In this document: positions 3,844-33,927 of the stretch, piece by piece
How positions within the stretch are numbered: position 1 is the stretch's first letter
How the letters are laid out: the number at the start of each line of letters is the position of its first letter
Assembly (NCBI GenBank): GCA_028279505.1
Contig: JANQNP010000042.1
Location: 93-64,092 of the forward strand
Source: Dehalococcoidia bacterium
GTDB lineage: Bacteria > Chloroflexota > Dehalococcoidia > UBA2979
Length of the DNA: 64,000 nucleotides
Direction: 5' to 3'
Program-made: the position numbers and the translations under genes
Notes under the pieces: model-generated
Database searches by the model: none
What the model was told of the DNA's origin: nothing
Seen by the model: the letters and a program-made list of their open reading frames with translations, nothing else

Positions 3844-3867
3844 GATACTGCCGAACTGCTGTCAGCC

Positions 3868-5733: not shown

Positions 5734-5736
5734 CGA

Positions 5737-11552: not shown

Positions 11553-11696
11553 TTTGCAAACATTCGCAACTTGGCGACACGTTGACCGGCTAGCGCGCTG
11601 GAACGGCCGGGATGCCTGCTCGCTCAGGGGGCAGCGGGCTTGCTTAACGCGAAAATTCGCATCAAGATACGATTCGTTTCTGCGAATCTTTGCGAA
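11553..11696. promoter_or_regulatory. AT-rich intergenic region with repeated TTCGCA/TGCGAA hexamers and short palindromes. Candidate operator/promoter for the downstream peptide ABC operon.
   Basis: TTTGCAAA palindrome at 11553-11560. TTCGCA at 11564 and 11656. GCGAAaaTTCGC near-palindrome at 11649-11660. TGCGAA at 11681 and 11691 (10-bp spacing). ATTCGCA/TGCGAAT inverted pair. Local AT content is well above the genome background. Confidence 0.35.
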
Positions 11697-11714
11697 AGTG
11701 ATCGAGGTGCATGG

Positions 11715-13367: not shown

Positions 13368-13376
13368 CTCCGCGCC

Positions 13377-16212: not shown

Positions 16213-17177
16213 TGGCCCTCCTGGAGGTGAACGACCTCACGACGACCTTCGCCACCGATCGCGGGCCGGTCCGTGCGTGCGACGGCGTCTCATTCGAGGT
16301 CGAGCGAGGCGAGGTGCTCGGCATCGTCGGCGAAAGCGGCAGCGGCAAGACGATCGCCGCCCTCTCCGTGATGGGGCTCGTTCCGCCGCCGGGCGTCATC
16401 GAGCGGGGCTCGATCCGCTTCGATGGCGAGGAGCTGCGCGGGGCGCCGGAGCACCGCTACCGTGACCTGCGCGGGCGCCAGATCGGGATGGTCTTCCAGG
16501 ACGCCGGCCGCGCCCTCGACCCGGTGCATACGGTTCGCTCGCACCTCCGCGAGGCGTCGGGGCGCCAGGACGATCATGGGGCGCTGCTCCAGCGGGTCGG
16601 GCTCGATGCGGATCTCCTCGATCGCTACCCGTACCAGCTCTCCGGTGGACAGCGGCAGCGCGTGATGATCGCAATCGCGATCGCGCGCGACCCGGCCCTC
16701 ATCATTGCCGACGAACCGACCACCGCCGTCGACGCGCTCACGCAGGTCGCCCTGTTGGCCGAGCTGATGCGGCTGCGTCACGAACTCGGGGCGGCGCTGA
16801 TCCTCGTCTCGCACAACCTCGGGCTCATCTCGCGCGTCGCCGATCGGGTCGCGGTGATGTACCTCGGCCAGATCCTCGAGCTGTCGCCCACCGCCGAGCT
16901 CGTTCGCGAGCCGGGCCACCCGTATTCGGCGGCGCTGCTCCGGGCCACGGTTCCCCTCGACGGCGATGGAACGCGCCTCGAGGGTGTCGGCGGCAACCCG
17001 GACAGTCTCCTCGACCCGCCGTCGGGGTGCGTCTTCTCCCGCCGCTGCCCGCACGCCGACGATTCGTGCGCCATGTCGCGCCCGGCGCTGGTGGCGACGG
17101 CGCCCGGCCGGCACTCCGCGTGCCATCACCTCGATCGGTTCGCCGAAGCGACGCGAGGGGTGGGGTATGGGAGCTGA
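16212..17177 (+). CDS. ABC transporter ATP-binding protein (DppD/OppD-like)
   Basis: ATG 16212 overlaps TGA. Walker A (GESGSGKT), signature ([14 protein letters not shown]), C-terminal oligopeptide-type Cys motif ([15 protein letters not shown]). Confidence 0.85.
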
Positions 17178-18150
17178 ACTGCTGCGTCTCACGGCCGCGG
17201 GCCGCGACTTCGCGAGCGGTCTGTTCTGGTCACGACAGCGGACCGTCGCGTTGGAGGCGCTCGACCTCGAACTGCGCCCACGCGAAACGGTCGGGCTCCT
17301 CGGACAGAGCGGCAGCGGCAAGACGACCGCCCTCCGCATCGCCGGGTTCCTGCTGCGTCCGACGCGCGGCGAGGTCTCCGTGGGCGGGCGCGACCCGTGG
17401 CGCGCAGGCGGTCGCGAGCGGCGCCGTCTGCGACGCGACGTGCAGTACGTCTTCCAAGACGGCAGCGACGCGTTCGATCCGCGGCAGGCCGCCGCCGGCA
17501 TCGTCGAGGAACCGCTTCGGAACTTCGGCGTGCCCGCCACCGACCGTCGGGAGCGCGTCGCCGAGGGGTTCGCGGCGGTCGGATTGACGGCGGACCTGCG
17601 CGACCGGCACCCGCACCAGCTCTCCGGCGGGCAACGACAGCGCCTCGGCATTGCGCGCGCCCTCGTGCTGGAGCCCGGCACCTTGCTGCTCGACGAGCCG
17701 GTCAGCGCGCTGGACGTCAGTCTCGCGGCTCAGGTCCTCAATCTGCTTCGCGATCTGCAAGAACAGCGCGGACTCGGGTACCTGCTCGTGAGCCATGAGT
17801 TGCCTGTCGTCCAACACCTGGCGGATCGGGTCCTGGTGCTCTATGCGGGGCTGGTCGTCGAAGAGGGTGGGGCGAAGATCTTGAGCGCGCCGGCCCACCC
17901 CTACACGCAGGCGCTCCGGGCGGCGGCGCTGACGGTGGACCCGGGGGCCGGCCTCCCACCGATCGCGGGCGTGGCTCCGCCCGCTCAGCGAGGCTGCGCC
18001 TTCGCCCCCTCTTGCCCGGCGGTGCACGACCGCTGCCGCGAGGCGCGCCCCGCCCTCGCGAGGCAGCCGGACGGCCGGCGCGTTCGGTGCTTCTTGTTCT
18101 CCGATCAGATCGACAACGACGCAGACAGGCTCAGCGAGGAGCTGCCATGA
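17167..18150 (+). CDS. ABC transporter ATP-binding protein (DppF/OppF-like)
   Basis: ATG 17167 (MGAELLRL). Walker A (GQSGSGKT), signature ([14 protein letters not shown]). Confidence 0.85.
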   Translation: MGAELLRLTAAGRDFASGLFWSRQRTVALEALDLELRPRETVGLLGQSGSGKTTALRIAGFLLRPTRGEVSVGGRDPWRAGGRERRRLRRDVQYVFQDGSDAFDPRQAAAGIVEEPLRNFGVPATDRRERVAEGFAAVGLTADLRDRHPHQLSGGQRQRLGIARALVLEPGTLLLDEPVSALDVSLAAQVLNLLRDLQEQRGLGYLLVSHELPVVQHLADRVLVLYAGLVVEEGGAKILSAPAHPYTQALRAAALTVDPGAGLPPIAGVAPPAQRGCAFAPSCPAVHDRCREARPALARQPDGRRVRCFLFSDQIDNDADRLSEELP

Positions 18151-18843: not shown

Positions 18844-20523
18844 CTAGTCGTCGATCCAGACCTCGTTCAGGCTGATGAACCAGGACTGGGGCTGGACGAA
18901 GCCCTTCACCTTCGGCGAGAGCGCCCGGAAGTTGAGGTCGTGCACGGTCACGAGGACCGGCGCGTCCTTCATCATCGTGGACTGGAACTCGGCGAGGATG
19001 GAATCCTGCTCCACCTTGTCGAAGCTGGCGGCCGCCGCGTAGTAGAGCGCGTCGACGTCCGGGTTGTCGTAGCCCGGCTGGTTGCAGCAGCCATCCGGCG
19101 GGATGAAGTCGCTGACGTAGAGCCGCCACCCGGTCGGGGCGACCGGCGCGAGTGAGATGTACGACATGTCGTACTGCTCCCAATCGGGGTGCTGGAAGCC
19201 CTGACGCAGCGCGGTGATGATGTTGTTCCACTCGATCGGGATCAGCTCGAGCTCGATCCCGACGGCGTCGAGGTCTTGCTTCAGCTTCTCGTTCATCGGA
19301 CCGGGGAACATGTTCCCGGAGCCGCCGGTCGGGTAGATCAGGCTCAGCTCAACGCCGCCGTCCGGGAATCCGGCCTCGGCGAGGAGGTCCCTCGCCCGCT
19401 GTGGGTCGTAGCTGTAGCCCTCCCAGCTCTCGTCGTACCAGGGGTGGCCCGGGTACATGTACTGAGTCGCGGGGAAGCCGACGTTGTTGATCAGCGTCGA
19501 GGTGCCCTCACGGTCGACGGCGTAGTTCAGCGCCTGGCGGATCAGCGGGTCCTGGAGCGGCCCGTTGTGCAGGTTGAGCTGGTACGTGATGACGTGTGGG
19601 TACTCCTTGAGCAGGACCTGGAAGTCCTGGGCCTCGAGGAGGTCGAGCGCGTCGGGGGGCGGCAGCTCCGCCCAGTCGATGTCGCCGGCCTGCAGCGCCG
19701 CGAGGCGGGTCGCCGGCTCGGGCATCGGGTAGAGCTCGATCCTGTCGAGCTTGGGGCGACCGCCCCAGTAGTCCTCGAAGGCGGTCAGCTCCATGATCTG
19801 GCCGTCGATGTACTCGGTCATCACGAACGGGCCGGTGCCAGTCGCGCTCTTGATGTAGTCGTCATTGCCGGCCTCCATCACCGCTTCCGGGCTGGGGAAG
19901 TAGATGTAAGCGAGGTCGTACGGCAGGAACGAGTAGGGCACGGCCGTGGAGATCTCGATGGTGTAGTCGTCGAGCATCGCGATCTCTTCGATCTGCGCGA
20001 GGCTCGAGGCGTTCGAAGCGGCGAGGCTGCTGTCGTAGTACTCGAAGTCCTCGTCACGGAGCCGGCTGAACTGGAACATGACGTCTTCGGCCTCGAAGGT
20101 CGTGCCGTCGTGGAAGACGACGTCCTCGCGGAGCTTGAACGTCCAGGTGAGCTGGTCCTCGGAGATCTCGTAGGACTCGGCGAGGGCGGGCACCGGCTCG
20201 GGTACCTCGTCGCCCTGCTCGACGGTCCAGCGGAAGAGTCCGTCGTAGATCTGATAGCCGACGAAGCGGCGTCCCTCGAAGCCCTCGTTGGGTGGGGTGT
20301 TCGGGAACGGGATGTTCCCGGCGGTCATCCCGATGCGGAGCACGCCGCCGCTGCCGCTGGTATCGGGGGTGGCGGCGACGGTTGGATCGCCGGTGCCGGT
20401 GTCGGCGGTTGCCGTGATGGTGTCGTCTCCGCCGTCGTCGCTGCCGCCACAGGCGATCAGCAACGCTCCGACCACGAGGGTCGCGAGGAACAGCGGAACC
20501 GCGCGCCACGTCTTGAAGCGCAT
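18844..20523 (-). CDS. ABC transporter substrate-binding lipoprotein, family 5 (peptide/nickel type)
   Basis: ATG at 20523 is preceded by GAGGGA. Lipoprotein signal (MRFKTWRAVPLFLATLVVGALLIACGGSDDGGDD). The tool ORF extends 63 codons further upstream without signal-peptide logic. Confidence 0.8.
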   Translation of the reverse strand: MRFKTWRAVPLFLATLVVGALLIACGGSDDGGDDTITATADTGTGDPTVAATPDTSGSGGVLRIGMTAGNIPFPNTPPNEGFEGRRFVGYQIYDGLFRWTVEQGDEVPEPVPALAESYEISEDQLTWTFKLREDVVFHDGTTFEAEDVMFQFSRLRDEDFEYYDSSLAASNASSLAQIEEIAMLDDYTIEISTAVPYSFLPYDLAYIYFPSPEAVMEAGNDDYIKSATGTGPFVMTEYIDGQIMELTAFEDYWGGRPKLDRIELYPMPEPATRLAALQAGDIDWAELPPPDALDLLEAQDFQVLLKEYPHVITYQLNLHNGPLQDPLIRQALNYAVDREGTSTLINNVGFPATQYMYPGHPWYDESWEGYSYDPQRARDLLAEAGFPDGGVELSLIYPTGGSGNMFPGPMNEKLKQDLDAVGIELELIPIEWNNIITALRQGFQHPDWEQYDMSYISLAPVAPTGWRLYVSDFIPPDGCCNQPGYDNPDVDALYYAAAASFDKVEQDSILAEFQSTMMKDAPVLVTVHDLNFRALSPKVKGFVQPQSWFISLNEVWIDD

Positions 20524-20648
20524 GCCAGTCCCTCTTCTCTTACGCACCCCCGTCCCTGGCGGGAGCCGCGATGCGGGGAACTCTAGGCAGCGCCGTTTGC
20601 CGCCTCGTGACCGCGGAATGAAGTCGCGGTGAATGCGAAGTCTCGGTT

Positions 20649-20725
20649 GCGTTCCCCGACGGTTCCGGGGCGGTTCCTCGGCGGTTCCGGTACTGTTCCT
20701 CGCCAGTTCCATGCGGGTTCAGCGG
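20649..20725. repeat. Array of 6-7 tandem 11-bp direct repeats (consensus cGGTTCCncgg) in a divergent promoter region
   Basis: GTTCC occurs at 20651, 20662, 20673, 20684, 20695 and 20706 with exactly 11-bp spacing. A seventh degenerate unit (GGTTCA) is at 20716. The array lies between the divergent SBP gene (-) and the ABC ATPase gene (+). Confidence 0.5.
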
Positions 20726-20975
20726 CGCTTGCCGCGACCCTTCGCGGACGGGACGTCGCCGCAACGTGGCGCTGACGCGCCGACGACCGAGGCGTGACGA
20801 ACAGGCAAGGGCCGGGCAACGAGCGAGCAATCGCCGGGCAACGGACCGGTCATCTGCTCTTCATCGGGCGGTCACCGCGGCGACACCGCCCGCCTCTAGC
20901 GTCGACTCCACGTCACCGAGAGCACGCGCCGCGGCCACGACCGTCGAGCGCGCGGAGTCAGCCGTGGAGGTCCAG

Positions 20976-22025
20976 ATGGCCGTGACCGCCGTACCCGAGC
21001 GCACCGCCCGTCAGCAGCCGCGACCCTCGGTCGGCTCGGTTGCATCGAGCGCGCCCGCGCCGCTGTTGCAGGTGGAAGGACTGAAGACGCAGTTCCCGAC
21101 GCGCGGCGGGTGGCTGACCGCCGTGAACGAGGTGTCGTTCGAGCTGGCGCCGGGCACGGTGCTCGGGGTCCTCGGCGAGTCGGGCTCGGGGAAGAGCGCG
21201 ATGCTGCGGACGATCCTGGGACTGCAGCCGAAGTCGGCGCGGATCAGCGGGGAGGTGATCCTCGAGGGACGCGACCTGATCGCGATGTCAGCTCGGGAAC
21301 GCGCGGCGATGCGCGGCTCCTCGGTGTCGATGGTGTTCCAGGACCCGATGACCGCGCTCGACCCCGTCTTCTCGGTCGAGCAGCAGCTCGTGGAGACGAT
21401 CCGACGCCACCACCCGATGTCTGGGGAGGAGGCGCGCGGGCGGGCACTCGAGCTGCTGCACCTCGTGCAGATCCCGTCGCCCGAGCGGCGGCTGAAGGCG
21501 TACCCGTACGAGCTCTCGGGCGGGATGCGACAGCGGATCGTGATCGCGATGGCGTTGGTCTCCAACCCGACGCTGCTGCTGGCGGACGAACCGACGACCG
21601 CCCTCGATGTGACGGTGCAGGCACGGGTGCTCGACCTCTTCCATGAGCTCAAGGGGCGCGAGGGGATGAGCATCATCTTCGTCACGCACGACCTGTCGGT
21701 CGCCGCGGAGATCGCGGATGAGATCGCGGTGATGTACGCGGGCCGGATCGTCGAGCAAGGCAGCGTCGAGGAGCTGGTGCGCAGTCCGCAGCACCCGTAC
21801 ACGCGCGGGTTGCTCGAGGCGAACGTGCGCCCCGGTCAGGCCGATCGGCCGGAGGCGATCCGTGGCGCGCCGCCCAACCTCGCGAACCTGCCGCCGGGCT
21901 GCTCGTTCGCGCCGCGCTGCGACCTCGTGGAGGACGCGTGCTGGTCGGCGCTGCCCGAGCCGGTGCACGTGTCGGCAAGCCACTTCGCGCGCTGCCGGCT
22001 CGTCACCGCGAGTGAGTCGAACTGA
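20976..22025 (+). CDS. ABC transporter ATP-binding protein (DppD-like)
   Basis: ATG 20976 (MAVTAVPER...LLQVEGLKTQF). Walker A (GESGSGKS), signature (LSGGMRQRIVIAMA), C-terminal CxxxxC oligopeptide-type tail. Confidence 0.75.
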   Translation: MAVTAVPERTARQQPRPSVGSVASSAPAPLLQVEGLKTQFPTRGGWLTAVNEVSFELAPGTVLGVLGESGSGKSAMLRTILGLQPKSARISGEVILEGRDLIAMSARERAAMRGSSVSMVFQDPMTALDPVFSVEQQLVETIRRHHPMSGEEARGRALELLHLVQIPSPERRLKAYPYELSGGMRQRIVIAMALVSNPTLLLADEPTTALDVTVQARVLDLFHELKGREGMSIIFVTHDLSVAAEIADEIAVMYAGRIVEQGSVEELVRSPQHPYTRGLLEANVRPGQADRPEAIRGAPPNLANLPPGCSFAPRCDLVEDACWSALPEPVHVSASHFARCRLVTASESN

Positions 22026-22969
22026 TGGCGACGATCATTGGGCGCCGCGTCGCGATGGCGATCCCGACGTTGTTCGGGGTGTCGATCCTGATCTGGCTGC
22101 TGCTCTCGATCCTGCCGGGCGATCCGCTGGCGTTCCTGTTGCCGCAGGACGCGACGCCAGCCGACCGCGAACAACTCTCCGCGGACCTCGGTCTCGATCG
22201 GCCGCTGGTCGTCCGCTACGTGAGCTGGGTCGGCGACGTGATGACCGGGGACTTCGGCTACTCGCCGTTCCGTCGCCGCGACGTGTCCGAGCTGATCGCA
22301 ACCGCGTGGACGAACACCGCGATCCTCGCGGGGGTCTCGGCGGTGTTCGGTCTGACGATCGGTGTCGCCGCCGGGACGCTGGCCGGTGTCTACCGAGGCT
22401 CGCTGATCGACCGGGCCGTGACCGGGCTCGCGATCGTGGGCCTGAGCGTGCCGTCGTTCTGGATCGGGATCTTGCTGCTGATCCTGTTCTCGGCGCAGTG
22501 GGGGCTCTTACCCGCCGGCGGCATCGGGTCGCTCGAGGATGGCTATCTCGATTACGCCAAACACTTAGTGATGCCGGTGATCGCCGGCTCGCTGATCACG
22601 ATCGCGATCACGGCGCGGGTGACGCGCGCCAGCATCGTGGAGACCTACCAGCTCGAGTTCGTCGACCTGCTGCGGGCGAAGGGGCTGCGCGAGTACCAGG
22701 TGCTGCTCCACGTCTCGAAGAACGCGATGTCGCCGGTGCTGACCACGGCGGGGCTGCAGATCGGCTACCTCCTCGGCGGGTCGGTGCTGATCGAGACGAT
22801 CTTCTCGTGGCCGGGCCTCGGACAGCTGGTGTTCAACGCGATCAGCGCGCGCGACCTGCTGGTGGTGCAGGCGACGACGCTGGTGATCGCGGTGACGTTC
22901 GTCCTGCTCAACCTCGCGGTCGACATCCTGCAGATCGCGTTCGACCCACGACAGAAGGCGGCCGGGTGA
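22025..22969 (+). CDS. ABC transporter permease (DppB-like)
   Basis: ATG overlaps the upstream TGA. Polytopic permease with EAA-type loop. Confidence 0.85.
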   Translation: MATIIGRRVAMAIPTLFGVSILIWLLLSILPGDPLAFLLPQDATPADREQLSADLGLDRPLVVRYVSWVGDVMTGDFGYSPFRRRDVSELIATAWTNTAILAGVSAVFGLTIGVAAGTLAGVYRGSLIDRAVTGLAIVGLSVPSFWIGILLLILFSAQWGLLPAGGIGSLEDGYLDYAKHLVMPVIAGSLITIAITARVTRASIVETYQLEFVDLLRAKGLREYQVLLHVSKNAMSPVLTTAGLQIGYLLGGSVLIETIFSWPGLGQLVFNAISARDLLVVQATTLVIAVTFVLLNLAVDILQIAFDPRQKAAG

Positions 22970-23008
22970 TGGCAGCCCAAGTAGGGGCCGGCGGGCGGGA
23001 GGCCAGCG

Positions 23009-23923
23009 ATGGCAACTGATGCGATGACGACCGACGCTGCCGCGCTCGCGCGGCAGTGGATGGACGCGGATGCACCGGCGTCGCCGGAGTCGTACCTCCA
23101 GGCCGGCCGGCGGCGGTTCCTGCGGAACCGCGTGGGTCTCGCAGCCCTCGGTGTGCTCGGGTTGCTGGTGGTGACGGCGGTCGCCGCGCCGGTACTGACG
23201 ACGTACGACCCGAACGTGGGTGTGCCCGCAGACCGGCTGCTGCCGATCGGTGCGGACGGCCACCTCGTCGGCACCGACGAGCAGGGCCGGGACATGCTGA
23301 CGCGGCTGTTCTACGGCGGGCGGCTGTCGCTGATCGCGGGCCTGACGCCGGTGCTGATCGCGACGGTGATCGGCACGTTCCTCGGATCAATCGCCGGGTA
23401 CCTCGGCGGGTGGGTCGCGGCGATCGTGATGCGGACGATGGACATGTTCTACGCGTTCCCGGCTGTGCTGCTGGCGATCGCGATCTCGGCGTCACTGGGG
23501 CCGGGCCTCGTCAACGTGATCATCTCGATGACAATCATCTACATCGCGCCGATCGCGCGGGTGGCGGAGGCGGCGACGCGGAAGATCGTGACGGCCGAGT
23601 TCATCGAGGCGGCGCGGCTGACCGGCGCGGGGACGCCGCGGATCATCGCGACGCAGGTGCTGGCGAACATCTTCAGCCCAATCTTCGTCTACGCCTCGGG
23701 GCTGGTCGGGCTGTCGATCGTGATCGCCGCGAGCCTGTCGTTCCTCGGGCTTGGCGTGAAGCCGCCCGACGCGGAGTGGGGCTTCATGCTCAACAGCCTG
23801 CGGGGAACGATCTACGTGAACCCGTGGGTGGCGGCGCTGCCCGGGCTGTTCATCTTCGCCACTTCGATCTCGTTCAACATGCTCGCCGACGCGCTACGTG
23901 ACGCGCTCGACGTGAAGGACTAA
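23009..23923 (+). CDS. ABC transporter permease (DppC-like)
   Basis: ATG 23009; N-terminal helix and permease core. Confidence 0.85.
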   Translation: MATDAMTTDAAALARQWMDADAPASPESYLQAGRRRFLRNRVGLAALGVLGLLVVTAVAAPVLTTYDPNVGVPADRLLPIGADGHLVGTDEQGRDMLTRLFYGGRLSLIAGLTPVLIATVIGTFLGSIAGYLGGWVAAIVMRTMDMFYAFPAVLLAIAISASLGPGLVNVIISMTIIYIAPIARVAEAATRKIVTAEFIEAARLTGAGTPRIIATQVLANIFSPIFVYASGLVGLSIVIAASLSFLGLGVKPPDAEWGFMLNSLRGTIYVNPWVAALPGLFIFATSISFNMLADALRDALDVKD

Positions 23924-23955
23924 CCCCGCCCGAAACCGCGGATCAGGAGCCGACC

Positions 23956-25008
23956 GTGACCACGACCGCCCTCGAACGACACGCCACCGCCGACGAACCT
24001 GGCCGCCCGCCGCTGTTGGAGGTGAAGGGCGTCAGCAAGCGGTTTCCGGTCCGGCTCGGGCTGATGAAGAAGGGGTACGTCTCGGCGGTGGAGGACCTGT
24101 CCTTCACGGTGAAGCCGGGCACCACCTTCGGCATCGTCGGCGAGTCGGGATGCGGCAAGTCGACCGCGGCGCGACTGATCCTCGGGTTGTTCGACGTCGA
24201 CGCGGGCGATGTGCTCTTCGAAGGCCGCAACGTGGTGAGCGCGCGACGGATGCCCAACATCAAGGAGGACAGCCGTGCCCTGCGCAAGCACATGCAGATG
24301 GTCTTCCAGGATCCGCATTCGGCGCTCAACCCGCGTGCCTCGATCGGGGAGATCGTCTCGTTCCCGATGAAGGTGCACGGCTACCCGAAGGACGAGCGCC
24401 GCGAGCGGACGCAATGGCTCCTGGAACAGGTGGGGCTGCACGCGAACCACGCGTCGTACTACCCGCACCAGCTCAGCGGCGGGCAGCGGCAGCGCGTGAA
24501 CATCGCGCGGGCGCTCGCGCTCTCGCCGAAGCTCGTCGTCTGCGACGAGGCGGTGTCCGCCCTCGACAAGTCGGTGCAGGCGCAGGTGCTGAACCTGCTG
24601 CAGGACCTGCAGGCCGAGCTGGGGCTGACGTACCTGTTCATCAGCCACGACCTGAACGTGGTGCAGTACGTGAGCGACGAGGTGCTGGTGATGTACCTCG
24701 GGCAGGCGGTCGAGGTGACCTCGGCGGAGCGGCTGTACGCCGAGCCGTTGCACCCGTACTCGCAGGCGCTGCTCGCCTCGATCCCGAAGATCGGGCTCGA
24801 CGACGAGCCCTCGGTGGAGGCGCCGCGCCTCGAGGGGGAGCTGCCGAGCCCGCTCGATCCGCCCTCGGGCTGTCGCTTCCGGACGCGGTGCCCGGTCGCG
24901 ATGGACGTCTGCGCCGAGGAGCGCCCGCCGATGGTCGAGGCGGCGCCGGAGCACCACGTCGCCTGCCACCTCTATTCCGAGGGCTCGGTGGAACCGCTCG
25001 CGATCTGA
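23956..25008 (+). CDS. ABC transporter ATP-binding protein (DppF-like)
   Basis: GTG 23956 is preceded by GGAG. Walker A (GESGCGKST), signature ([14 protein letters not shown]), C-terminal Cys motif (GCRFRTRCPVAMDVC). Confidence 0.85.
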   Translation: MTTTALERHATADEPGRPPLLEVKGVSKRFPVRLGLMKKGYVSAVEDLSFTVKPGTTFGIVGESGCGKSTAARLILGLFDVDAGDVLFEGRNVVSARRMPNIKEDSRALRKHMQMVFQDPHSALNPRASIGEIVSFPMKVHGYPKDERRERTQWLLEQVGLHANHASYYPHQLSGGQRQRVNIARALALSPKLVVCDEAVSALDKSVQAQVLNLLQDLQAELGLTYLFISHDLNVVQYVSDEVLVMYLGQAVEVTSAERLYAEPLHPYSQALLASIPKIGLDDEPSVEAPRLEGELPSPLDPPSGCRFRTRCPVAMDVCAEERPPMVEAAPEHHVACHLYSEGSVEPLAI

Positions 25009-25070
25009 CCGCGACGCGATCCCGCCCGACCCGCGATTCGATATGCCAGCCGTCCGAGAAGGGAATCCGA

Positions 25071-25283
25071 ATGCCAGTGCCAGAGAACGTCGAAGCCGCC
25101 GTGCGGGGGATGGTCGATGCCGCGGGGTTGCCTGTCAGCGAGGAGGAGTTCGACTCCTTCGTTGCGATGTACCCGACGCTCCGGGAGGCCGCCGATGGCC
25201 TCTATATAGAGGACGTGCGCTACGAGGAGCCGGCGCTCATCTTCACGCCCGTTGCTCCAACGCCGGCCGCGGTCAAGGAGTAA
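25071..25283 (+). CDS. Small (70 aa) GatC-like / AtzG-like protein. Candidate small subunit for the downstream amidases.
   Basis: ATG 25071 is preceded by GAAGGGAA. Acidic helical protein with a GatC-like pattern (L-PVSEEEFDSFVAMYPTLREAADGLYIEDVRYEEPA). Its TAA is 5 nt before the amidase GTG. Confidence 0.45.
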   Translation: MPVPENVEAAVRGMVDAAGLPVSEEEFDSFVAMYPTLREAADGLYIEDVRYEEPALIFTPVAPTPAAVKE

Positions 25284-25287
25284 GGCG

Positions 25288-26700
25288 GTGACACTCCCAG
25301 ACACGATCGAAGCGGCAGCCACCGCGCTGCGCGCGGGCGAGGTCACGAGCGTCGAACTGACCGAGGAGGCGCTCCGGAAGATCGAGGCGATGAACGACGA
25401 CGTCGGCGCGTTCATCGCCGTGAGCGAGAGGGCGATGGAGCAGGCTGCACGCGCCGATGCCGGCCTCGCGGCGGGCGTTGACCGGGGTCCGCTCCAGGGC
25501 ATCCCGTTCGGACTGAAGGACATCCTCGCAACGAAGGACCAGCCGTCGACGGCGAACTCGCTCGTGCTCGACCCGGCGTGGGGTGACGGCTACGACGCCG
25601 TCGTCAGCGAGCGCGTGCGCGCGGCCGGCGCCGTCATCATGGGCAAGCTCGTCCTCTCCGAGTTCGCCCTCGGGCCTCCCGATGAGGAGAAGCCGTTCCC
25701 GATCCCGAGGAACCCGTGGGCGCTCGATCGGACGCCGGGTGGATCGTCCTCGGGGACAGGCATCGCCGTCTCGACTGGGATGGTGCTGGGCGGCCTCGGG
25801 ACGGACACGGGCGGGTCGGTGCGGTTCCCGGCCGCGTACTGCGGGCACACGGGGCTGAAGGTCACCTACGGGCGCGTGCCGAAGTGGGGCTGCGTCCCGC
25901 TGGGCTACTCGCTCGACTCGATCGGGCCGATGGCGCGGTCGGCCTACGACTGCGCCGCGATCCTTGACGTGATCGCGGGGCCCGACGCGCGCGACGTGAC
26001 CGCTTCGACGGCGCCCGGTGAGGACTACCTCGGGGGGATCGACCGCAGCGTCGAGGGGCTGACGATCGGGGTGCCGCGGGCCTACTTCTTCGACCACGAG
26101 CAGCTCGACTCCGAGATGCAGGCGGCGACGGAGGCGGTGATCGCCGCGCTTGCCGACCTCGGCGCGCGGATCGTCGAAATCGAGCTGCCGCACTCCGACC
26201 TGGCGAAGGAGGCGAACACGCTGACGATGGTCAGCGAGGCGTTCGCCTACCACCGCACGGACATGGCGAGCGAGCGGTGGACGGACTATGGCGCGAAGAC
26301 GCGGATGATCATCGCGCGCGGCGCCTTCTACTCGGCGGCCGACTACGTGCAGGCCCAGCGGTTCCGGAGCTGGTACGCGAAGGCGGCCGCCTCGGTGATG
26401 GCGGAGGTCGACGCGTTGATCACGCCGACGATCATCGAGCCGGCCGCGCTCTCCGCCGAGAACGACCTCGCGAAGCGGCTGACGCAGCCGAGCTACACGG
26501 GGCCGTTCAACCTGCTGGGGTACCCGGCGCTGGCGCTGCCCTCGGGCTTCTCGTCTGACCTCGGACTGCCGCTGTCGGCGCAGATCGTCGGCGCGCCGAT
26601 GTCAGAGGCGCTGCTGCTGCGGATCGGACACGCCTACCAGCAGCAGACCGACTGGCACCTGCAGTACCCGACCGGGGTCCTCGAGGGGAGCGTCGCATGA
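25288..26700 (+). CDS. Amidase-signature family enzyme (GatA-like amidase), paralog 1
   Basis: GTG 25288 is preceded by AAGGAG. Amidase-signature Gly/Ser-rich block (PGGSSSGTGIAVSTGMVLGGLGTDTGGSVRFPAAYCG). Confidence 0.8.
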   Translation: MTLPDTIEAAATALRAGEVTSVELTEEALRKIEAMNDDVGAFIAVSERAMEQAARADAGLAAGVDRGPLQGIPFGLKDILATKDQPSTANSLVLDPAWGDGYDAVVSERVRAAGAVIMGKLVLSEFALGPPDEEKPFPIPRNPWALDRTPGGSSSGTGIAVSTGMVLGGLGTDTGGSVRFPAAYCGHTGLKVTYGRVPKWGCVPLGYSLDSIGPMARSAYDCAAILDVIAGPDARDVTASTAPGEDYLGGIDRSVEGLTIGVPRAYFFDHEQLDSEMQAATEAVIAALADLGARIVEIELPHSDLAKEANTLTMVSEAFAYHRTDMASERWTDYGAKTRMIIARGAFYSAADYVQAQRFRSWYAKAAASVMAEVDALITPTIIEPAALSAENDLAKRLTQPSYTGPFNLLGYPALALPSGFSSDLGLPLSAQIVGAPMSEALLLRIGHAYQQQTDWHLQYPTGVLEGSVA

Positions 26701-28109
26701 CGGAGATCCCACTCACGATCACGGATGCGGCGGCGGCGATGCGCGCGGGGACGCTGACGAGCCTCGAGCTGGTCGAAGCCTGCTTCGCGCATGCCGACGC
26801 GCTGGACGGGGAGCTCGGGGTCTATCTCCACCGGCTCGACGACGACGCACGAGCCGCGGCGCGGGCGGCCGACGAGGAGCTGGCCGCCGGGACCGATCGC
26901 GGTCCGCTGCACGGGATCCCGATCGGCATCAAGGACATCATCGCAACCAACGAGGCGCCGACCACCGCGCAGAGCCTCGTGCTCGACCCGGCGTGGGGGG
27001 CTCAGGGCGATGCGCCTGTAGTGGCCCGGCTGCGCGAGGCGGGCGCGATCGTGATGGGTAAGACCTCGACGATGGAGTTCGCGATCGGGATGCCGGACGC
27101 GTCGAAGCCGTTCCCGGTGCCGCGGAATCCGTGGAACACGGACACGTGGCCCGGTGGATCTTCATCCGGTAGCGGCGCCGGCGTGGCGGCCGGATTCTTC
27201 CTCGGGGCGCTGGGGACGGACACCGGTGGCTCGGTGCGGATCCCGGCCGCGTTCTGCGGCATCAGCGGGATGAAGCAGACCTTCGGCCGCGTCCCGAAGT
27301 CCGGCTGCGCGCCGCTCGGCTACTCGCTCGACCACATCGGCCCGCTGACTCGGAGCGCGCGCGACTGCGCGGCGATGCTCGGGGTGATGGCGGGTGCTGA
27401 CGCCTCGGATCCGACGACCGCGGACGTGCCGGTGCCGGACTACCTCGCGGCGCTGACCGGAAGCGTCGAGGGCCTGCGCATCGGCGTAGAGCGGGCGAAC
27501 CACCTCGATGCTCCGGGGGTGCTCCCGGAGGCGGTGGAGGCGTTCGAGGCGGCGGTGAGCTGGTTCGCCGGTGCGGGCGCGATCCTCGATGAGGTGGAGA
27601 TTTCTCGGTACGAGGCGATCCGGAACGTCGGTCTGATCACGATGCGGGGCGAGGCGAACTCGTACCACCAGAGCGACCTGCAGTCACGCTGGAGCGACTA
27701 CGGCATGTACACGAACCGTTTCGTCGCCGGCGGGGCGTTGGTGTCGGCCTCGGACTACGTCCAGGCACAGCGATTCCGCAGCCTGGCGCGCGAGCAGATG
27801 GCGGCGCTGATGAAGCCGTTCGACGTGCTGATCATGCCGACCGCCGGGATGGGGGCGCCACTCGTCGAGGGCCTCGACGACACCTCGTTCATGGGGTGGC
27901 CGGTGTTCACACCGTTCTGGAATCCGCTGGGGCTGCCGGTGCTCTCGGTGCCGATGGGGTTCACGAACGACGGGCTTCCGCTGTCGCTGCAGATCGCCGG
28001 CAAACCGTTCGATGAGGCGACGGTCTTCCGCGTCGCCGATGCGTTCCAGCAGGCGACGGATCACCATCTGCAGGTGCCGTCGCTGGTGTCAGGTGCGGTC
28101 ACCGTCTAA
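26697..28109 (+). CDS. Amidase-signature family enzyme (GatA-like amidase), paralog 2
   Basis: ATGA overlap with paralog 1. Signature block (PGGSSSGSGAGVAAGFFLGALGTDTGGSVRIPAAFCG). Roughly half of residues are identical to paralog 1 by eye. Confidence 0.8.
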   Translation: MTEIPLTITDAAAAMRAGTLTSLELVEACFAHADALDGELGVYLHRLDDDARAAARAADEELAAGTDRGPLHGIPIGIKDIIATNEAPTTAQSLVLDPAWGAQGDAPVVARLREAGAIVMGKTSTMEFAIGMPDASKPFPVPRNPWNTDTWPGGSSSGSGAGVAAGFFLGALGTDTGGSVRIPAAFCGISGMKQTFGRVPKSGCAPLGYSLDHIGPLTRSARDCAAMLGVMAGADASDPTTADVPVPDYLAALTGSVEGLRIGVERANHLDAPGVLPEAVEAFEAAVSWFAGAGAILDEVEISRYEAIRNVGLITMRGEANSYHQSDLQSRWSDYGMYTNRFVAGGALVSASDYVQAQRFRSLAREQMAALMKPFDVLIMPTAGMGAPLVEGLDDTSFMGWPVFTPFWNPLGLPVLSVPMGFTNDGLPLSLQIAGKPFDEATVFRVADAFQQATDHHLQVPSLVSGAVTV

Positions 28110-28209: not shown

Positions 28210-29895
28210 CTAGTGGGTGTCGAAGATCGCCTGGTACTCGGCGACCTTCGCAGCCGTCGCGGCGACCTCGTCGGGCGTGGGGTTCGCCGGGTCGGCGGCG
28301 GGCGGGAGCGCGCCGAGCTTCAACAGCGCCGCCATCAGCAGGATGCGCGCCTTGGTGGAAGTCAGGTTGCTGCCCGCGATCTTGACCGGGTCGGTCTTGT
28401 AGGCGTTGCCGCCGGTCGCGCCGCGGCCGACGCCGACGACGGGCATCCCGCTGAACACGGCGCGCGTCAGCGCCTGGTCGGTCGCAGTGTTCATGCTGCC
28501 GTACGGCGACGCGCCTTCACCGACGAAGCCAGCGAGTGGCGCCGCCTCGAGGTTGCGAGCGATGCGACCGAGGATCTCGACTTCGCTGTCGGCGTCGACC
28601 TCAGGGCCCGGGGGCAGGTAGCGCGCGTACTTCGCGATGGTGACGCTGGGCATCGCCTCGGGGCGGAGCAGGCCATCCGCCGTCTTCACCGCGATCGGCT
28701 CCGTGTGGATGGCTGTGCCGTCGAGGCAGATGCCCGGAACGACATCCTGTAGCTGCGTGAGGTTCAGCTCGGATGACCAGGTGTGCTTGCGGCTGGGGAC
28801 GTAGGTGAGCTGCGGGGGTGCGTAGCCGTTCATCAGCGCGACGACGCCGCCGTGGCCGCCGGTCGCCTCGTAGTTGCCGGGGCGCGCGTCGGTCTTGGTC
28901 ACCTCGCGAGCGTGAAACACCTGCTCGTCGACGATCATCACGCCGCCGACCGTGTCCCGCTCGCCGCCGTTTCGCCAGACGTTCGAGAGGATGTACTTCA
29001 CCCCATCGACGATGTTGCGGTCGCCGTCGGCGCTCACGGTCTGATGCGGCCGCTGGGAAGAGTGGCCGACGAGCGGGATGGCGGTGTCGATCAGGAGGTT
29101 CAGCCAGTACATCGACTCCTCGGTGGTGGGACTGCCCTCGAGCCACTGGGCGCCGGCGTACTCGCCGCTCGCGAGGGTGGTGGCGACCATGTTGGTCGCC
29201 TTCGCGAGCGCGACGAGGTGTGGCTCCGCCCGCAGGTGGCGCGGGTAGTAGATGAAGAAGTCGTCGCCGAGGCGCTCGGGTGGGATGTCGCCTTCGCCGC
29301 GGTCGGTGCGCTGATCCTCGGGCAGGCCCTGCTTGTAGCCGCCCGACGGCGCCGCCCGGTAGAAGTCGAACGCCGCGACCGAGGACAGCAGGTTGTTGTG
29401 CCCATCGCTATCGACGCCGAAGCGGTCGATCTCCTCGTAGATGCGCGAGGCGTCGGGATAGAAGGTCTGGCGGGCGTGGTCCTCGGGCGCGTTGGGGAAG
29501 GCGCAGGCTTCCTCCCACGGCGAGCCGTCAGCCTGCCGCCCCATATAAGGGAGCAGGTAGAGGCCGTCCGATGGATCGAGGGTGGCGACCTGGACCGGGC
29601 GATCCTCGGCGGTGGTCGGCTCCTCGTGGAACGCGCCGTCCGCGTCGAGGTAGCCGTCGGGCGGGGCGTAGAGCGCGGCCGCGTCGGCCTCGAGGGGGTG
29701 GGCGCTGAGGTAGTCGATGTAGACCGTGACAGGGGCGGCGAGGCGCTGGGCGCGCAGGGCATCGAAGCCCTCGGCGGTGCCGTTCTCGGGCAGGGTGTGG
29801 CGCTGGCGGGCCTGGCGGCTGGTGATCAGCGGCGGGCTGTTCTGGATGGTCGCGGTCGGTCCGGAGAAGACCGCGATCCTCGGAAGGTCGGGCAT
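28210..29895 (-). CDS. Atypical L-asparaginase/glutaminase-superfamily protein with a large insertion and variant catalytic motifs
   Basis: ATG 29895 (MPDLPRIAVFSGPTATIQNS) aligns with the asparaginase N-terminal TGGTIAG region. The segment LEGSPTTEESMYWLNLLIDTAIPLVGHSSQRPHQTVSADGDRNIVDG parallels the asparaginase HGTDTMEETAYFLNL...PVVxVGAMRPSTAISADGPxNL block. The C-terminal GMPVVGVGRGATGGN block also fits. About 250 aa are inserted between the two motif regions. Confidence 0.4.
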   Translation of the reverse strand: MPDLPRIAVFSGPTATIQNSPPLITSRQARQRHTLPENGTAEGFDALRAQRLAAPVTVYIDYLSAHPLEADAAALYAPPDGYLDADGAFHEEPTTAEDRPVQVATLDPSDGLYLLPYMGRQADGSPWEEACAFPNAPEDHARQTFYPDASRIYEEIDRFGVDSDGHNNLLSSVAAFDFYRAAPSGGYKQGLPEDQRTDRGEGDIPPERLGDDFFIYYPRHLRAEPHLVALAKATNMVATTLASGEYAGAQWLEGSPTTEESMYWLNLLIDTAIPLVGHSSQRPHQTVSADGDRNIVDGVKYILSNVWRNGGERDTVGGVMIVDEQVFHAREVTKTDARPGNYEATGGHGGVVALMNGYAPPQLTYVPSRKHTWSSELNLTQLQDVVPGICLDGTAIHTEPIAVKTADGLLRPEAMPSVTIAKYARYLPPGPEVDADSEVEILGRIARNLEAAPLAGFVGEGASPYGSMNTATDQALTRAVFSGMPVVGVGRGATGGNAYKTDPVKIAGSNLTSTKARILLMAALLKLGALPPAADPANPTPDEVAATAAKVAEYQAIFDTH

Positions 29896-30116
29896 CTGTG
29901 GGCTCCGCTTGAGTGGCCTCGGGTGGATGCCTCGGACGCTACCGGTCGGGGATGTCGGGGCCATGACCGGCAGGTCTCGACGAGGTGCCGTGGAGGCAAC
30001 AACCCTCGGCCGCAGCCCTCGTCAACGGAGCACCGAACCGGGAGCTTCTCTTGCTCGTCGGTGTCGGAGACCTGCGAGCAGTGAGTCGATCGGGCTCCCC
30101 GAGGAGGGTTGAACGG

Positions 30117-33888: not shown

Positions 33889-33895
33889 CTGAACC
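33882..33895. promoter_or_regulatory. 14-bp palindrome GGTTCAacTGAACC overlapping the regulator start, in a 39-bp divergent intergenic region. Candidate autoregulatory operator.
   Basis: Perfect 6-bp arms with a 2-bp spacer. An AT-rich TATCGATA palindrome follows at about 33917-33924, upstream of the divergent SBP gene. Confidence 0.3.
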
Positions 33896-33927
33896 TCTTT
33901 CTGTCGGTTGGATCGGCTTATCGATAG

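What the first reader, a model, noticed from the sequence alone, without database searches (positions are those of the whole stretch)
20649..20725. Six to seven tandem 11-bp direct repeats (cGGTTCCncgg) with exact helical periodicity in a divergent promoter region
GTTCC recurs six times at exactly 11-bp spacing, plus a degenerate seventh unit. The array sits between a divergently transcribed family-5 SBP gene and an ABC ATPase gene. Its 11-nt unit length and GTTC core resemble the direct-repeat-unit architecture of actinobacterial PhoP-type operators (PHO box core GTTCACC). It could equally be a site for another winged-helix response regulator. An array this long and regular implies cooperative binding of several regulator dimers and strong conditional control of both the peptide ABC importer and the downstream amidase genes.
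Basis: partly seen in the sequence, partly recalled or inferred. Interest (0 to 1): 0.6.

Follow-up and report, generated by a model that had tools for sequence, protein, structure and literature searches.

The report
Phased operator array between divergent promoters
The 11-bp GTTCC repeat is real and is the outer part of a long row of evenly spaced binding sites for a response-regulator-type activator that probably switches on a peptide/amide uptake and breakdown gene cluster; it is an unusually long example of a familiar kind of bacterial gene switch.

Summary
GTTCC occurs six times at exactly 11-bp spacing (20651-20710), followed by GTTCA at 20717.

The array is not a stand-alone element. 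Read on the minus strand (GGAAC), it continues a head-to-tail series of 13 units in one register. That series ends 10 bp upstream of a -10-like TAGAGT for the SBP gene. A mirror-image 13-unit series on the plus strand ends 10 bp upstream of TAGCGT for the ABC-amidase operon.

The promoter-proximal units ([G/T]TCA[C/T], GCAAA/GACAC), the 10-nt gap and the -10 are conserved in orthologous loci down to 61% protein identity. The GGAAC run itself is specific to this lineage. Against a 99%-identical relative, the array cores carry 0/35 changes and the spacers 9/42.

The same operator precedes an asparaginase-like gene in three lineages and an amidase-urease operon in a relative.

This architecture is that of OmpR/PhoB-family activators (PhoB/PhoP Pho boxes, actinobacterial GlnR boxes). 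The proximal units look like a Pho box, but every regulated gene concerns nitrogen, and the host looks like a Chloroflexota, not an actinobacterium.

The best reading is a distal extension of a cooperative activator operator, most likely responsive to nitrogen limitation. The regulator itself was not identified. Verdict: new member of a known kind, moderate interest.

The parts
20651..20721 (-). The flagged array. On the minus strand it reads TGAAC followed by six GGAAC (units k=11 to k=5 of the lattice), 11-bp period, with variable 6-nt spacers.
   Evidence: Cores 0/35 versus spacers 9/42 substitutions against L120 (Fisher p=0.003).
20596..20644 (-). Five promoter-proximal units of the SBP operator, in the same register: GAGAC (20640-44), TTCAC (20629-33), TTCAT (20618-22), GTCAC (20607-11), GCAAA (20596-600).
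   Evidence: Register table across orthologs L120, L125, L121, L126, L123, L124. No substitution against L120 in 20524-20637, where third codon positions differ by 8.9%.
20728..20732 (-). Possible 13th, outermost unit (GCAAG) of the SBP-side array.
   Evidence: In register, with A at position 4. This is weak evidence.
20580..20585 (-). -10-like hexamer TAGAGT of the SBP promoter, 10 nt downstream of the GCAAA unit. The ATG lies 56 nt further on.
   Evidence: TAGNGT at the same 10-nt distance in every ortholog. The transcription start was not mapped.
18844..20523 (-). Family-5 solute-binding lipoprotein gene (559 aa), with a signal peptide and lipobox (LIACGG).
   Evidence: Pfam SBP_bac_5, 2e-84. 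Homologs. The ortholog gene call has the same length.
20750..20886 (+). Mirror-image array for the ABC-amidase operon. It reads GGGAC, GCAAC, CTGAC, ACGAC, GTGAC, GCAAG, GCAAC, GCAAT, GCAAC, GTCAT, TTCAT, GTCAC, GACAC (k=14-26). The last four units are the conserved proximal operator. The TRF repeat GCCGGGCAAC (20811-20843) is its distal part.
   Evidence: The proximal four units are conserved in L120, L121, L126 and L123.
20897..20902 (+). -10-like hexamer TAGCGT of the ABC-amidase operon, 10 nt downstream of the GACAC unit.
   Evidence: Orthologs have the same spacing.
20976..28109 (+). Operon: ABC ATPase (20976-22025), permeases (22025-22969, 23009-23923), ATPase (23956-25008), small conserved ORF (25071-25283), and two amidase-signature genes (about 25252-26700 and about 26700-28109).
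   Evidence: Pfam, NCBIfam, small ORF. L253 and L252 have the same gene order.
29936..29989 (-). Third operator in the window: GGCAC-n6-GAGAC-n6-GTCAT-n6-GACAT-n10-TAGCGT, 40 nt upstream of the ATG (29895) of the asparaginase-like gene.
   Evidence: PWM score 21.3, against a shuffle maximum of 9.2. It is one of only 3 matches to the relaxed 4-unit pattern in 64 kb, with 0.0 expected. Equivalent sites precede the same gene in L131 and L252.
28210..29895 (-). Asparaginase-like gene (561 aa), a third transcription unit of the inferred regulon.
   Evidence: Weak Pfam hits to Asparaginase and Asparaginase_C. The start was fixed by alignment with the L131 ortholog.

Best explanation
The GTTCC array is the promoter-distal part of a long operator for a winged-helix activator of the OmpR/PhoB response-regulator family.

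Layout. Read on the minus strand, 13 five-base cores (consensus G-n-n-A-C, or [G/T]TCA[C/T] near the promoter) sit exactly 11 bp apart, head to tail. The last core lies 10 bp upstream of the -10 hexamer of the SBP gene, where a -35 box would normally be. A second 13-unit array, in the opposite orientation, does the same for the ABC-transporter/amidase operon. Together the two arrays tile the whole 312-bp inter-promoter region.

Inferred mechanism. Activated regulator dimers (one dimer per 22 bp) nucleate on the conserved proximal units and contact RNA polymerase. Further dimers then polymerise cooperatively along the weaker distal GGAAC and GCAAC units. This raises occupancy and sharpens the response. 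The distal units arose in this lineage by duplication of 11- or 22-bp blocks, and selection has since held their cores.

The regulator is encoded elsewhere. All four operator-bearing transcription units found (SBP; ABC plus amidases; asparaginase-like; and amidase plus urease in a relative) release or import organic nitrogen. The signal is therefore most likely nitrogen limitation, making this a functional analogue of actinobacterial GlnR in a probable Chloroflexota host.

Shown: the phasing, the conservation pattern, the positions relative to -10-like hexamers, and the gene associations. Inferred: protein binding, the family of the binder, activation, cooperativity and the signal.

The confidence given (0.65) is for the operator reading as a whole. 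I put the OmpR/PhoB-type operator at about 0.8 and the nitrogen signal at about 0.5.
For: Phasing and extent. Six exact GTTCC at 11 bp. The lattice 20596+11k has A at core position 4 in 13/13 minus-strand units and 13/13 plus-strand units. There is a run of 11 phased A[C/T], against at most 6 in 2000 shuffles.

Conservation in orthologs. The proximal units, the n10 gap and TAGNGT are conserved at both divergent promoters in orthologs at 99, 82, 70, 69, 64 and 61% SBP identity. Distal units stay in register as GTAAC, GAGAC, GTCAC, GAAAC or GGAAT.

Selection on the cores. Window against L120: array cores 0/35 changed and spacers 9/42 (p=0.003). The stretch 20524-20637 has 0/114 changed, while third codon positions differ by 8.9%.

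Specificity. The relaxed 4-unit + n10 + TAnnnT pattern matches exactly three places in 64 kb (0.0 expected), all promoters in this gene cluster. The PWM finds the asparaginase-like promoter in the window and in L131, and a 3-unit site in L252. A further site precedes the small ORF-amidase-ureAB-ureC operon in L131.

Known architecture. The same pattern retrieved more than 120 metagenome sites. Of 20 downstream genes checked, 19 were Pho-regulon types (PstS-like, PhoX, PhoD, PhoU, phospholipase C and others). This shows that the unit-n6-unit...n10-(-10) layout is the activation geometry of a PhoB-type regulator. The literature reports 11-nt direct-repeat units, cooperative extension from core units and up to 6-8 units for PhoP (PMC2275107). 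It also reports head-to-tail tetramers and hexamers of PhoP and GlnR on RNA polymerase (PMC11825685; PMC10235972). The GlnR motif is Gn2AC-n6-GnAAC, with a critical AC-n9-AC, and its regulon includes peptide and urea uptake (PMC3662644).

Duplication. The 22-bp super-period fits dimer-sized duplication. The inter-promoter distance is 312 bp here against 187-199 bp in more distant orthologs, and the excess roughly equals the GGAAC plus GCAAC units.

Alternatives to a DNA operator. No RNA structure and no Rfam hit.
Against: - No binding protein, transcription start or expression data exist. The -10 hexamers are inferred only from conservation and position.
- No response-regulator gene lies in the 64-kb window or in any of the orthologous loci.
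- The proximal units cannot be told apart from a Pho box at the pattern level, which favours a phosphate regulator over a nitrogen one on motif grounds.
- All operator sites seen lie in or next to one gene cluster, so a pathway-specific rather than global regulator is not excluded.
- The distal GGAAC units are lineage-specific, and their function rests on a single pairwise comparison.
- GlnR itself is known only from Actinobacteria, whereas the best named homologs of the window's proteins are Dehalococcoidia/Chloroflexota.
Confidence: 0.65

Rival explanations
1. The binder is the organism's true phosphate regulator (the PhoB/PhoP orthologue), and this nitrogen-scavenging cluster belongs to its Pho regulon.
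For: The proximal units [G/T]TCA[C/T] at 11 bp, with the last one 10 nt from the -10, match the pattern that retrieves Pho-regulon promoters from metagenomes (19 of 20 checked). They also match the core of the Streptomyces PHO direct-repeat unit GG/TTCAY. The best outside PWM match (L205, 51.7 bits) precedes an OlsB-like acyltransferase next to PhoX.
Against: - None of the four operator-linked transcription units has any phosphate-related function: SBP_bac_5, oligopeptide-type ABC, amidases, asparaginase-like and urease.
- The units here are more degenerate (GACAC, GAGAC, GGAAC, GCAAC, GCAAA) than the nearly uniform GTCAY of the Pho hits.
- GGAAC and GCAAC mismatch the most conserved PHO positions.
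- OmpR-family paralogues with Pho-like motifs are known; GlnR and PhoP share and compete for sites.
Confidence: 0.18
2. Two regulators share the region. One activator uses the conserved Pho-box-like proximal units. The GnAAC-type distal arrays (GGAAC, GCAAC) are sites for a second OmpR-family protein that modulates or competes with it, as PhoP does with GlnR at the Streptomyces amtB promoter.
For: Proximal and distal units differ in sequence class ([G/T]TCAY against GnAAC). There is a precedent for competitive PhoP/GlnR occupancy of adjacent boxes (PMC11825685).
Against: - The distal units are in the exact register and orientation of the proximal ones, with no extra spacer.
- In orthologs the distal positions hold mixed GTCAC, GTAAC, GAGAC and GAAAC units, so there is no clean class boundary.
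- In the asparaginase-like promoters GAGAC/GACAC units sit in proximal positions.
Confidence: 0.1
3. Only the conserved proximal units are functional. The GTTCC run is a recent slippage or duplication product of 11- or 22-bp blocks with no role of its own.
For: The run is absent from orthologs of 82% identity or less. The 22-bp period and the 113-125 bp expansion of the intergenic region show recent amplification. Perfect 11-mer tandem repeats containing GTTCC are common in many genomes.
Against: - Only the 5-nt cores are identical within the array, and the spacers differ.
- Against L120 the cores have 0/35 changes and the spacers 9/42 (p=0.003). The neutral yardstick is 8.9%, which gives about a 4% chance of 0/35 on its own.
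- The more distant orthologs also carry 8-10 phased units, so long arrays are ancestral even though the sequence is not.
Confidence: 0.12
4. The array binds another kind of tandem-repeat DNA-binding protein: a SARP, a ribbon-helix-helix ParR/omega-like protein, a MraZ-like protein or a nucleoid protein. Alternatively it acts through intrinsic DNA curvature.
For: SARPs use repeats of 11-bp period next to the -10 (papers listed). ParR centromeres consist of 11-bp iterons (my own knowledge, not tested). The phased AA steps could add some curvature.
Against: - There are no par, rep or biosynthetic-cluster genes nearby.
- The spacing to the -10 is 10 nt, as in Pho promoters. SARP sites lie about 8 bp from the -10 (my own knowledge, not checked in the papers I read).
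- The core motif matches OmpR/PhoB-type sites.
Confidence: 0.07
5. The array is a transcribed RNA element (leader or small RNA), or a coding or assembly artefact.
For: A mechanical ORF (18844-20712) overlaps the array.
Against: - Fold z-scores are +1.0 and +0.4, and there is no Rfam match.
- An 11-bp period is not a multiple of three.
- The array lies upstream of both inferred -10 boxes.
- The true SBP start at 20523 is supported by orthologs and by the signal peptide.
- An independent assembly (L120) carries the same array.
Confidence: 0.01

Closest known systems
Actinobacterial GlnR boxes (for example the amtB promoters of Streptomyces coelicolor and Mycobacterium; a-site gTnAc/Gn2AC, b-site GaAAC/GnAAC, 6-nt spacers)
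   Same: 5-nt cores at an 11-bp period, bound head to tail. AC-n9-AC phasing. GGAAC and GCAAC fit GnAAC; GTCAC, GAGAC and GACAC fit Gn2AC. The sites surround or replace the -35. Multiple boxes occur (up to 6 sites). The regulon consists of nitrogen-scavenging genes, including peptide and urea uptake.
   Different: Here up to 13 units per promoter form homotypic runs instead of alternating a and b sites. The proximal units TTCAC, TTCAT and GCAAA are not GlnR-like. The host appears to be Chloroflexota, where GlnR is not known. No glnR-like gene was seen.
PhoB/PhoP Pho boxes (E. coli CTGTCAT repeats 10 bp upstream of the -10; Streptomyces PHO direct-repeat units GG/TTCAYYYRG/CG; class III operators with core and extension units)
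   Same: 11-nt units. A [G/T]TCA[C/T] core in the proximal units. A 10-nt distance to the -10. Cooperative extension from conserved core units to poorly conserved ones. Up to 6-8 units reported. Cryo-EM shows 2, 4 or 6 PhoP protomers in tandem on RNA polymerase. The pattern derived here retrieves Pho promoters.
   Different: The regulated genes are nitrogen-related, not phosphate-related. The flagged GTTCC/GGAAC units do not match the PHO core. The array is about twice as long as the longest described.
OmpR sites at ompF/ompC (F1-F4, C1-C3)
   Same: Rows of tandem low- and high-affinity sites are filled hierarchically by one response regulator (my own knowledge, not tested here).
   Different: Those sites are 20-bp units of different sequence, include a distant repressing site, and do not form two opposed arrays tiling a divergent region.
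ParR/parC type II plasmid centromeres (ten 11-bp iterons flanking a promoter)
   Same: Long runs of 11-bp direct repeats are bound cooperatively to form a helical nucleoprotein array (my own knowledge).
   Different: There is no parM/parR or plasmid context. The units here abut -10 boxes of metabolic operons and match response-regulator motifs.

Membership tests
OmpR/PhoB-family response-regulator operator (generic) | Two or more direct repeats of a short core at a 10-11 bp period, contiguous and head to tail | tested here: met
   13 + 13 units at exactly 11 bp.
OmpR/PhoB-family response-regulator operator (generic) | For activated promoters: the proximal unit replaces the -35, about 10 bp upstream of the -10 | tested here: met
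   An n10 gap to TAGNGT/TAnnnT at 3 promoters in the window and at all orthologous promoters. Pho-regulon promoters from metagenomes have the same geometry. The -10 is inferred; the transcription start was not mapped.
OmpR/PhoB-family response-regulator operator (generic) | Bound by a winged-helix response regulator | not testable with these tools
   No regulator gene in the window or in related loci. EMSA, footprinting or DAP-seq is needed.
Streptomyces-type PhoP PHO box | Direct-repeat unit core GG/TTCAY in the units concerned | tested here: not met
   The flagged units are GTTCC (+) or nGGAAC (-). A5 is missing on the + strand, and positions 3-4 mismatch on the - strand. The neighbouring proximal units (aTTCAC, cTTCAT, gGTCAC) do meet the core but lack the G1 preference.
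Streptomyces-type PhoP PHO box | Association with phosphate-scavenging genes | tested here: not met
   All operator-linked genes are SBP_bac_5, oligopeptide-type ABC, amidase, asparaginase-like or urease.
Proteobacterial PhoB Pho box | Tandem (C)TGTCAY repeats at 11 bp, 10 bp upstream of the -10 | tested here: inconclusive
   The proximal operators satisfy the degenerate pattern that retrieves Pho promoters. However, only 6 of about 20 proximal units are GTCAY, and the gene association is wrong.
Actinobacterial GlnR box | AC-n9-AC phasing with Gn2AC / GnAAC cores | tested here: met
   Of the 13 minus-strand cores, 9 are G..AC, 1 is TGAAC, and the others are TTCAC, TTCAT, GCAAA and GCAAG variants. 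All have A at position 4 (motif).
Actinobacterial GlnR box | Alternating a-site / b-site pairs forming 22-bp boxes | tested here: not met
   Homotypic runs (six GGAAC; GCAAG/GCAAC/GCAAT/GCAAC). Only the spacers show a 22-bp alternation.
Actinobacterial GlnR box | Nitrogen-assimilation or nitrogen-scavenging target genes | tested here: met
Actinobacterial GlnR box | Host is an actinobacterium encoding GlnR | tested here: not met
   The best named homologs of the window's acyl-CoA dehydrogenase (66-75% identity) are all Dehalococcoidia/Chloroflexota. Named SBP hits at 52-54% are mostly Dehalococcoidia/Chloroflexota, with one Actinomarinicola. The taxon is inferred from best hits only. No glnR gene could be looked for.
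SARP-binding heptamer repeats | Repeats of 11-bp period about 8 bp from the -10 of antibiotic-cluster promoters in actinomycetes | tested here: not met
   The period fits, but the distance is 10 nt, there is no biosynthetic cluster and the host is not an actinomycete.
Plasmid iterons / ParR centromere | Repeat array next to rep or par genes on a mobile replicon | tested here: not met
   No rep or par genes in 64 kb. The array is conserved in a chromosomal metabolic cluster.
Neutral tandem repeat (slippage product) | Whole unit repeated, with substitutions spread evenly over the unit | tested here: not met
   Only the 5-nt cores are identical. Cores 0/35 against spacers 9/42 changes versus L120.

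The most novel reading that the evidence does not exclude
An uncultured Dehalococcoidia-like Chloroflexota lineage controls organic-nitrogen scavenging (peptide/amide import, amidases, an asparaginase-like enzyme, urease) through an OmpR/PhoB-family activator. That activator keeps a Pho-box-like recognition core and would be an independent, non-actinobacterial counterpart of GlnR. In this lineage its operator has expanded, by 22-bp block duplication, into two opposed 13-site lattices. These fill the whole divergent control region in one 11-bp register and would form a filament of about 26 protomers bridging two promoters.
Probability: 0.3. Interest if true: 0.6.

Novelty: new member of a known kind. 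Interest (0 to 1): 0.42.

Why it matters
If the reading is right, the locus gives a sequence-defined operator (unit consensus, spacing and distance to the -10). With it, the regulon of a still unidentified response regulator can be mapped in genomes of an uncultured, environmentally abundant Chloroflexota group. I know of no nitrogen or phosphate regulatory network described for that group (my own knowledge).

It also offers a natural series for asking what extra low-affinity sites add to cooperative activation by OmpR/PhoB proteins: about 4 to 13 phased sites at one promoter across relatives. Current cryo-EM work has only reached six protomers.

The mismatch between a Pho-box-like core and purely nitrogen-related target genes makes one question directly testable: how do paralogous regulators with near-identical motifs partition their targets?

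Tried and rejected
- Known RNA families and RNA structure over the array: one sub-threshold miRNA hit elsewhere, and fold z-scores of +1.0 and +0.4. Rejected.
- Sigma-70 consensus promoter and terminator scan of 20400-21100: nothing found. This is uninformative for a 69% GC genome and for activator-dependent promoters.
- Search for a linked regulator. Pfam over essentially all credible ORFs of the window found only an XRE-HTH/Peripla_BP_2 fusion, a Fur and an XRE-cupin, none adjacent. There was no response regulator, and none in the orthologous loci.
- Exact look-up of the window's SBP to find the source contig: not on record. Cluster names gave no organism.
- Scan of 185,579 species genomes for four or more GTTCC at 11 bp: more than 119 loci (truncated) in many phyla. 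Most are perfect 11-mer tandem repeats. The core-only arrays I inspected lack the proximal-unit/-10 context seen here, so they are not evidence for the same system. Without a control pentamer the scan says nothing about enrichment.
- Idea that the two arrays must share one helical register. This holds here and in L120 (286 = 26 x 11) but not in L121, L126 or L123 (remainders 7, 8, 8). It is not a conserved constraint.
- Some metagenome pattern hits are chance matches or simple tandem repeats, for example L237 inside a LytS-type kinase gene and the GACATAGAGTG repeats.
- L205, the best outside match, looks proteobacterial from its gene content (PhoX, LpxH-like, RelA/SpoT-like). It does not reveal the Pho box of Chloroflexota.
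- NCBIfam naming of the SBP, amidases and aminotransferase: no model reached its cut-off, so the substrate stays unknown.
- Not used: the third homolog search and the last contig look-up. I had no pstS, amtB or regulator sequence from this lineage to use as a query.
Full report
**1. The observation**

GTTCC starts at 20651, 20662, 20673, 20684, 20695 and 20706 on the plus strand, exactly 11 bp apart. GTTCA follows at 20717. The window holds 77 GTTCC in 64 kb and no other run longer than two on either strand, so chance is excluded. Tandem Repeats Finder reports periods of 11 and, scoring higher, 22. Only the five-base core is invariant; the six-base spacers differ.

A family-5 solute-binding lipoprotein gene lies on the minus strand (18844-20523). 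A divergent operon starts at ATG 20976 and encodes an ABC ATPase, two permeases, a second ATPase, a small ORF and two amidases.

**2. The array is part of something larger**

Orthologous loci were fetched through homologs of the SBP. With their upstream regions anchored and printed in 11-nt register, a conserved series appears on the strand of the SBP gene. In the window it reads:

TGAAC, GGAAC x6, GAGAC, TTCAC, TTCAT, GTCAC, GCAAA, then 10 nt, then TAGAGT (20585-20580), then 56 nt to the ATG.

- Orthologs at 82, 70, 69, 64 and 61% SBP identity keep the last four or five units, the 10-nt gap and a TAGNGT hexamer.
- Further upstream they keep the register but carry other cores: GTAAC, GAGAC, GTCAC, GAAAC, GGAAT.
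- The flagged repeat is therefore the distal, lineage-specific part of a conserved head-to-tail operator. Its functional reading is most probably GGAAC on the minus strand.

The plus strand carries a mirror image for the ABC operon: GTCAT, TTCAT, GTCAC, GACAC, 10 nt, TAGCGT (20897-20902). These units are preceded in register by GCAAC, GCAAT, GCAAC, GCAAG and more degenerate units back to about 20750. The second tandem repeat that TRF found at 20811-20843 (GCCGGGCAAC) is the distal part of this second array.

All 27 lattice positions 20596+11k share one register. Units 0-12 have A at core position 4 on the minus strand, and units 14-26 have it on the plus strand. A run of 11 phased A[C/T] compares with at most 6 in 2000 shuffles. 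The shared register of the two arrays is not conserved in other lineages.

**3. Evidence that the cores are under selection**

A relative with 99% identical SBP (L120, an independent assembly) has the same seven cores. It differs at 9 of 42 spacer positions and 0 of 35 core positions (Fisher p=0.003).

- Third codon positions of the two flanking genes differ by 8.9%.
- The whole intergenic region differs by 8.2%.
- The 114 bp from the SBP start through the proximal units has no change at all.

The inter-promoter distance is 312 bp here and 187-199 bp in the more distant orthologs. The excess is about the length of the GGAAC and GCAAC runs. Together with the 22-bp super-period, this points to amplification of dimer-sized blocks.

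**4. The regulon**

A strict pattern for the three proximal units plus n10 plus TAnnnT hits only the two divergent promoters in the window and in each ortholog. It also hits a third site in L124/L131. With longer flanks, that site lies upstream of a small ORF-amidase-ureAB-ureC operon.

A PWM built from 11 sites found two further sites far above the shuffle maximum (21-22 bits against 9.2). Both lie directly upstream of the asparaginase-like gene, one in the window (29989-29936, 40 nt before the corrected ATG at 29895) and one in L131. A three-unit site precedes the same gene in L252.

A relaxed four-unit pattern matches exactly three places in the 64-kb window (0.0 expected in 100 shuffles), and all three are these promoters. 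Every operator-linked transcription unit imports organic nitrogen compounds or removes amide or amino groups from them. None has a phosphate-related function. No regulator gene lies in the window or in any related locus.

**5. What kind of protein binds**

The following combination is the signature of OmpR/PhoB-family winged-helix activators:

- direct repeats of a 5-nt core at 11 bp;
- head-to-tail orientation;
- the last unit 10 nt from the -10, in place of a -35.

The published record agrees.

- PhoP of Streptomyces binds 11-nt units (GG/TTCAYYYRG/CG). It needs at least two units, loses binding at 10 nt, and extends cooperatively from conserved core units to poorly conserved ones, with up to 6-8 units (PMC2275107).
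- Cryo-EM shows 2, 4 and 6 PhoP protomers and 4 GlnR protomers in tandem contacting RNA polymerase (PMC11825685, PMC10235972).
- GlnR recognises gTnAc/Gn2AC and GaAAC/GnAAC cores six bases apart, with an essential AC-n9-AC. It activates peptide and urea uptake among more than 100 genes (PMC3662644).

As an empirical test, I scanned metagenome contigs with a degenerate four-unit + n10 + TAGNGT pattern derived from the sites here. It returned more than 120 loci. Their units were overwhelmingly GTCAY. Of 20 downstream genes checked, 19 were Pho-regulon types: PstS-like, PhoX, PhoD, PhoU, phospholipase C, phosphonate-binding, metallophosphoesterase and OlsB-like. So the layout is the activation geometry of a PhoB-type regulator, and the proximal units here look like a Pho box.

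**6. Nitrogen or phosphate?**

The motif favours Pho and the gene content favours nitrogen. I give more weight to gene content, for four reasons.

- Four transcription units in several lineages have no phosphate gene among them.
- The units here are more degenerate than Pho sites and include GnAAC and Gn2AC cores.
- The distal arrays (GGAAC, GCAAC) mismatch the most conserved PHO positions.
- A precedent exists in GlnR for a PhoB-family paralogue with a Pho-like motif that governs nitrogen scavenging.

Membership in the GlnR family itself is doubtful. Named homologs of the window's acyl-CoA dehydrogenase (66-75% identity) are all Dehalococcoidia/Chloroflexota, and the named SBP homologs are mostly the same. 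The a/b alternation of GlnR boxes is also absent.

My estimates:

- OmpR/PhoB-type operator: about 0.8.
- Within that, nitrogen-responsive about 0.5-0.55, true Pho regulator about 0.2, other or pathway-specific signal for the rest.

**7. Mechanism proposed**

Activated dimers nucleate on the conserved proximal units and recruit RNA polymerase. Further dimers then fill the distal units cooperatively. The long distal runs raise local occupancy and sharpen the response at both divergent promoters.

- Shown: phasing, conservation, positions and gene associations.
- Inferred: binding, activation, cooperativity and the signal.

Rivals are a true Pho regulator, a second competing regulator on the distal units, a non-functional recent amplification, another family of repeat binders, and an RNA element. 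The last is rejected.

**8. Novelty and verdict**

This is a real, selected cis-regulatory array. It is a new and unusually long member of a well-known class of operators, in a phylum where such regulation has not been described to my knowledge. Its interpretation is right on architecture, and wrong or unproven on strand, on PHO identity and on the host.

Limits of the evidence:

- there are no expression or binding data;
- the -10 boxes are inferred;
- the taxon rests on best hits only;
- selection on the distal cores rests on a single pairwise comparison.

Noticed in passing
window 25071-25283 (+); L253 3192-3395; L252 5302-5508; L131 5951-6133: A small conserved ORF (70 aa here, MPVPENVEAAVRGMVDAAGLPVSEEEF...) sits directly before the amidase genes in every lineage. 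A 60-aa ORF precedes the amidase of the urease operon in L131. The amidases score best, though below cut-off, against AtzE, allophanate-hydrolase and GatA models. The small protein may therefore be an AtzG/GatC-like partner subunit (resemblance from my own knowledge).
   Followed up: partly
window 29936-29989 (-): A third copy of the operator (GGCAC, GAGAC, GTCAT, GACAT, n10, TAGCGT) lies upstream of the asparaginase-like gene. The mechanical ORF list starts that gene too far upstream; its true ATG is at 29895.
   Followed up: yes
window 20811-20843 (+): The tandem repeat GCCGGGCAAC (period 11) turned out to be the distal part of the ABC-side operator array.
   Followed up: yes
window 390-6243: Four neighbouring ORFs carry FHA domains, among them a fusion of a major-facilitator transporter with two FHA domains (3835-5730).
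   Followed up: no
window 32323-33933 (-): An ORF fuses an XRE-type helix-turn-helix with a periplasmic-binding-protein (Peripla_BP_2) domain. It lies near a FecCD/Peripla_BP_2 transporter further along the window (47544-50178).
   Followed up: no
window 11586-18150 (+): A second oligopeptide-type ABC cluster (SBP_bac_5, alpha/beta hydrolase, permease, ATPases) lies 700 bp from the SBP gene but carries no copy of the operator.
   Followed up: partly
L001 7623-7690, L046 2808-2880, L065 4006-4050 (one Pyrinomonadaceae MAG); L009, L012, L072, L080, L082 and others (Paludibacteraceae): 11-bp GTTCC arrays occur in many phyla. One Pyrinomonadaceae genome has three core-only arrays, each followed by a conserved GACGGGAACGTGCAAG-like flank. 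Paludibacteraceae genomes have GTTCCAATSAG runs followed by 11-mers ending in GGGGCA. Neither has the context seen here, and both remain unexplained.
   Followed up: partly
L132-L251 (metagenome contigs): The pattern GNCAY-n6-KWSAY-n6-GWCAY-n6-GNMAH-n10-TAGNGT works as a harvester of Pho-regulon promoters (PstS, PhoX, PhoD, PhoU, phospholipase C, OlsB-like) over a GC range of 0.40-0.72.
   Followed up: partly
L128-L130 (SBP 67% identical): In this lineage the SBP gene sits next to a GntR/UTRA regulator gene and an amidase gene, and lacks the phased operator. This suggests a different, local mode of control of a related gene set.
   Followed up: no
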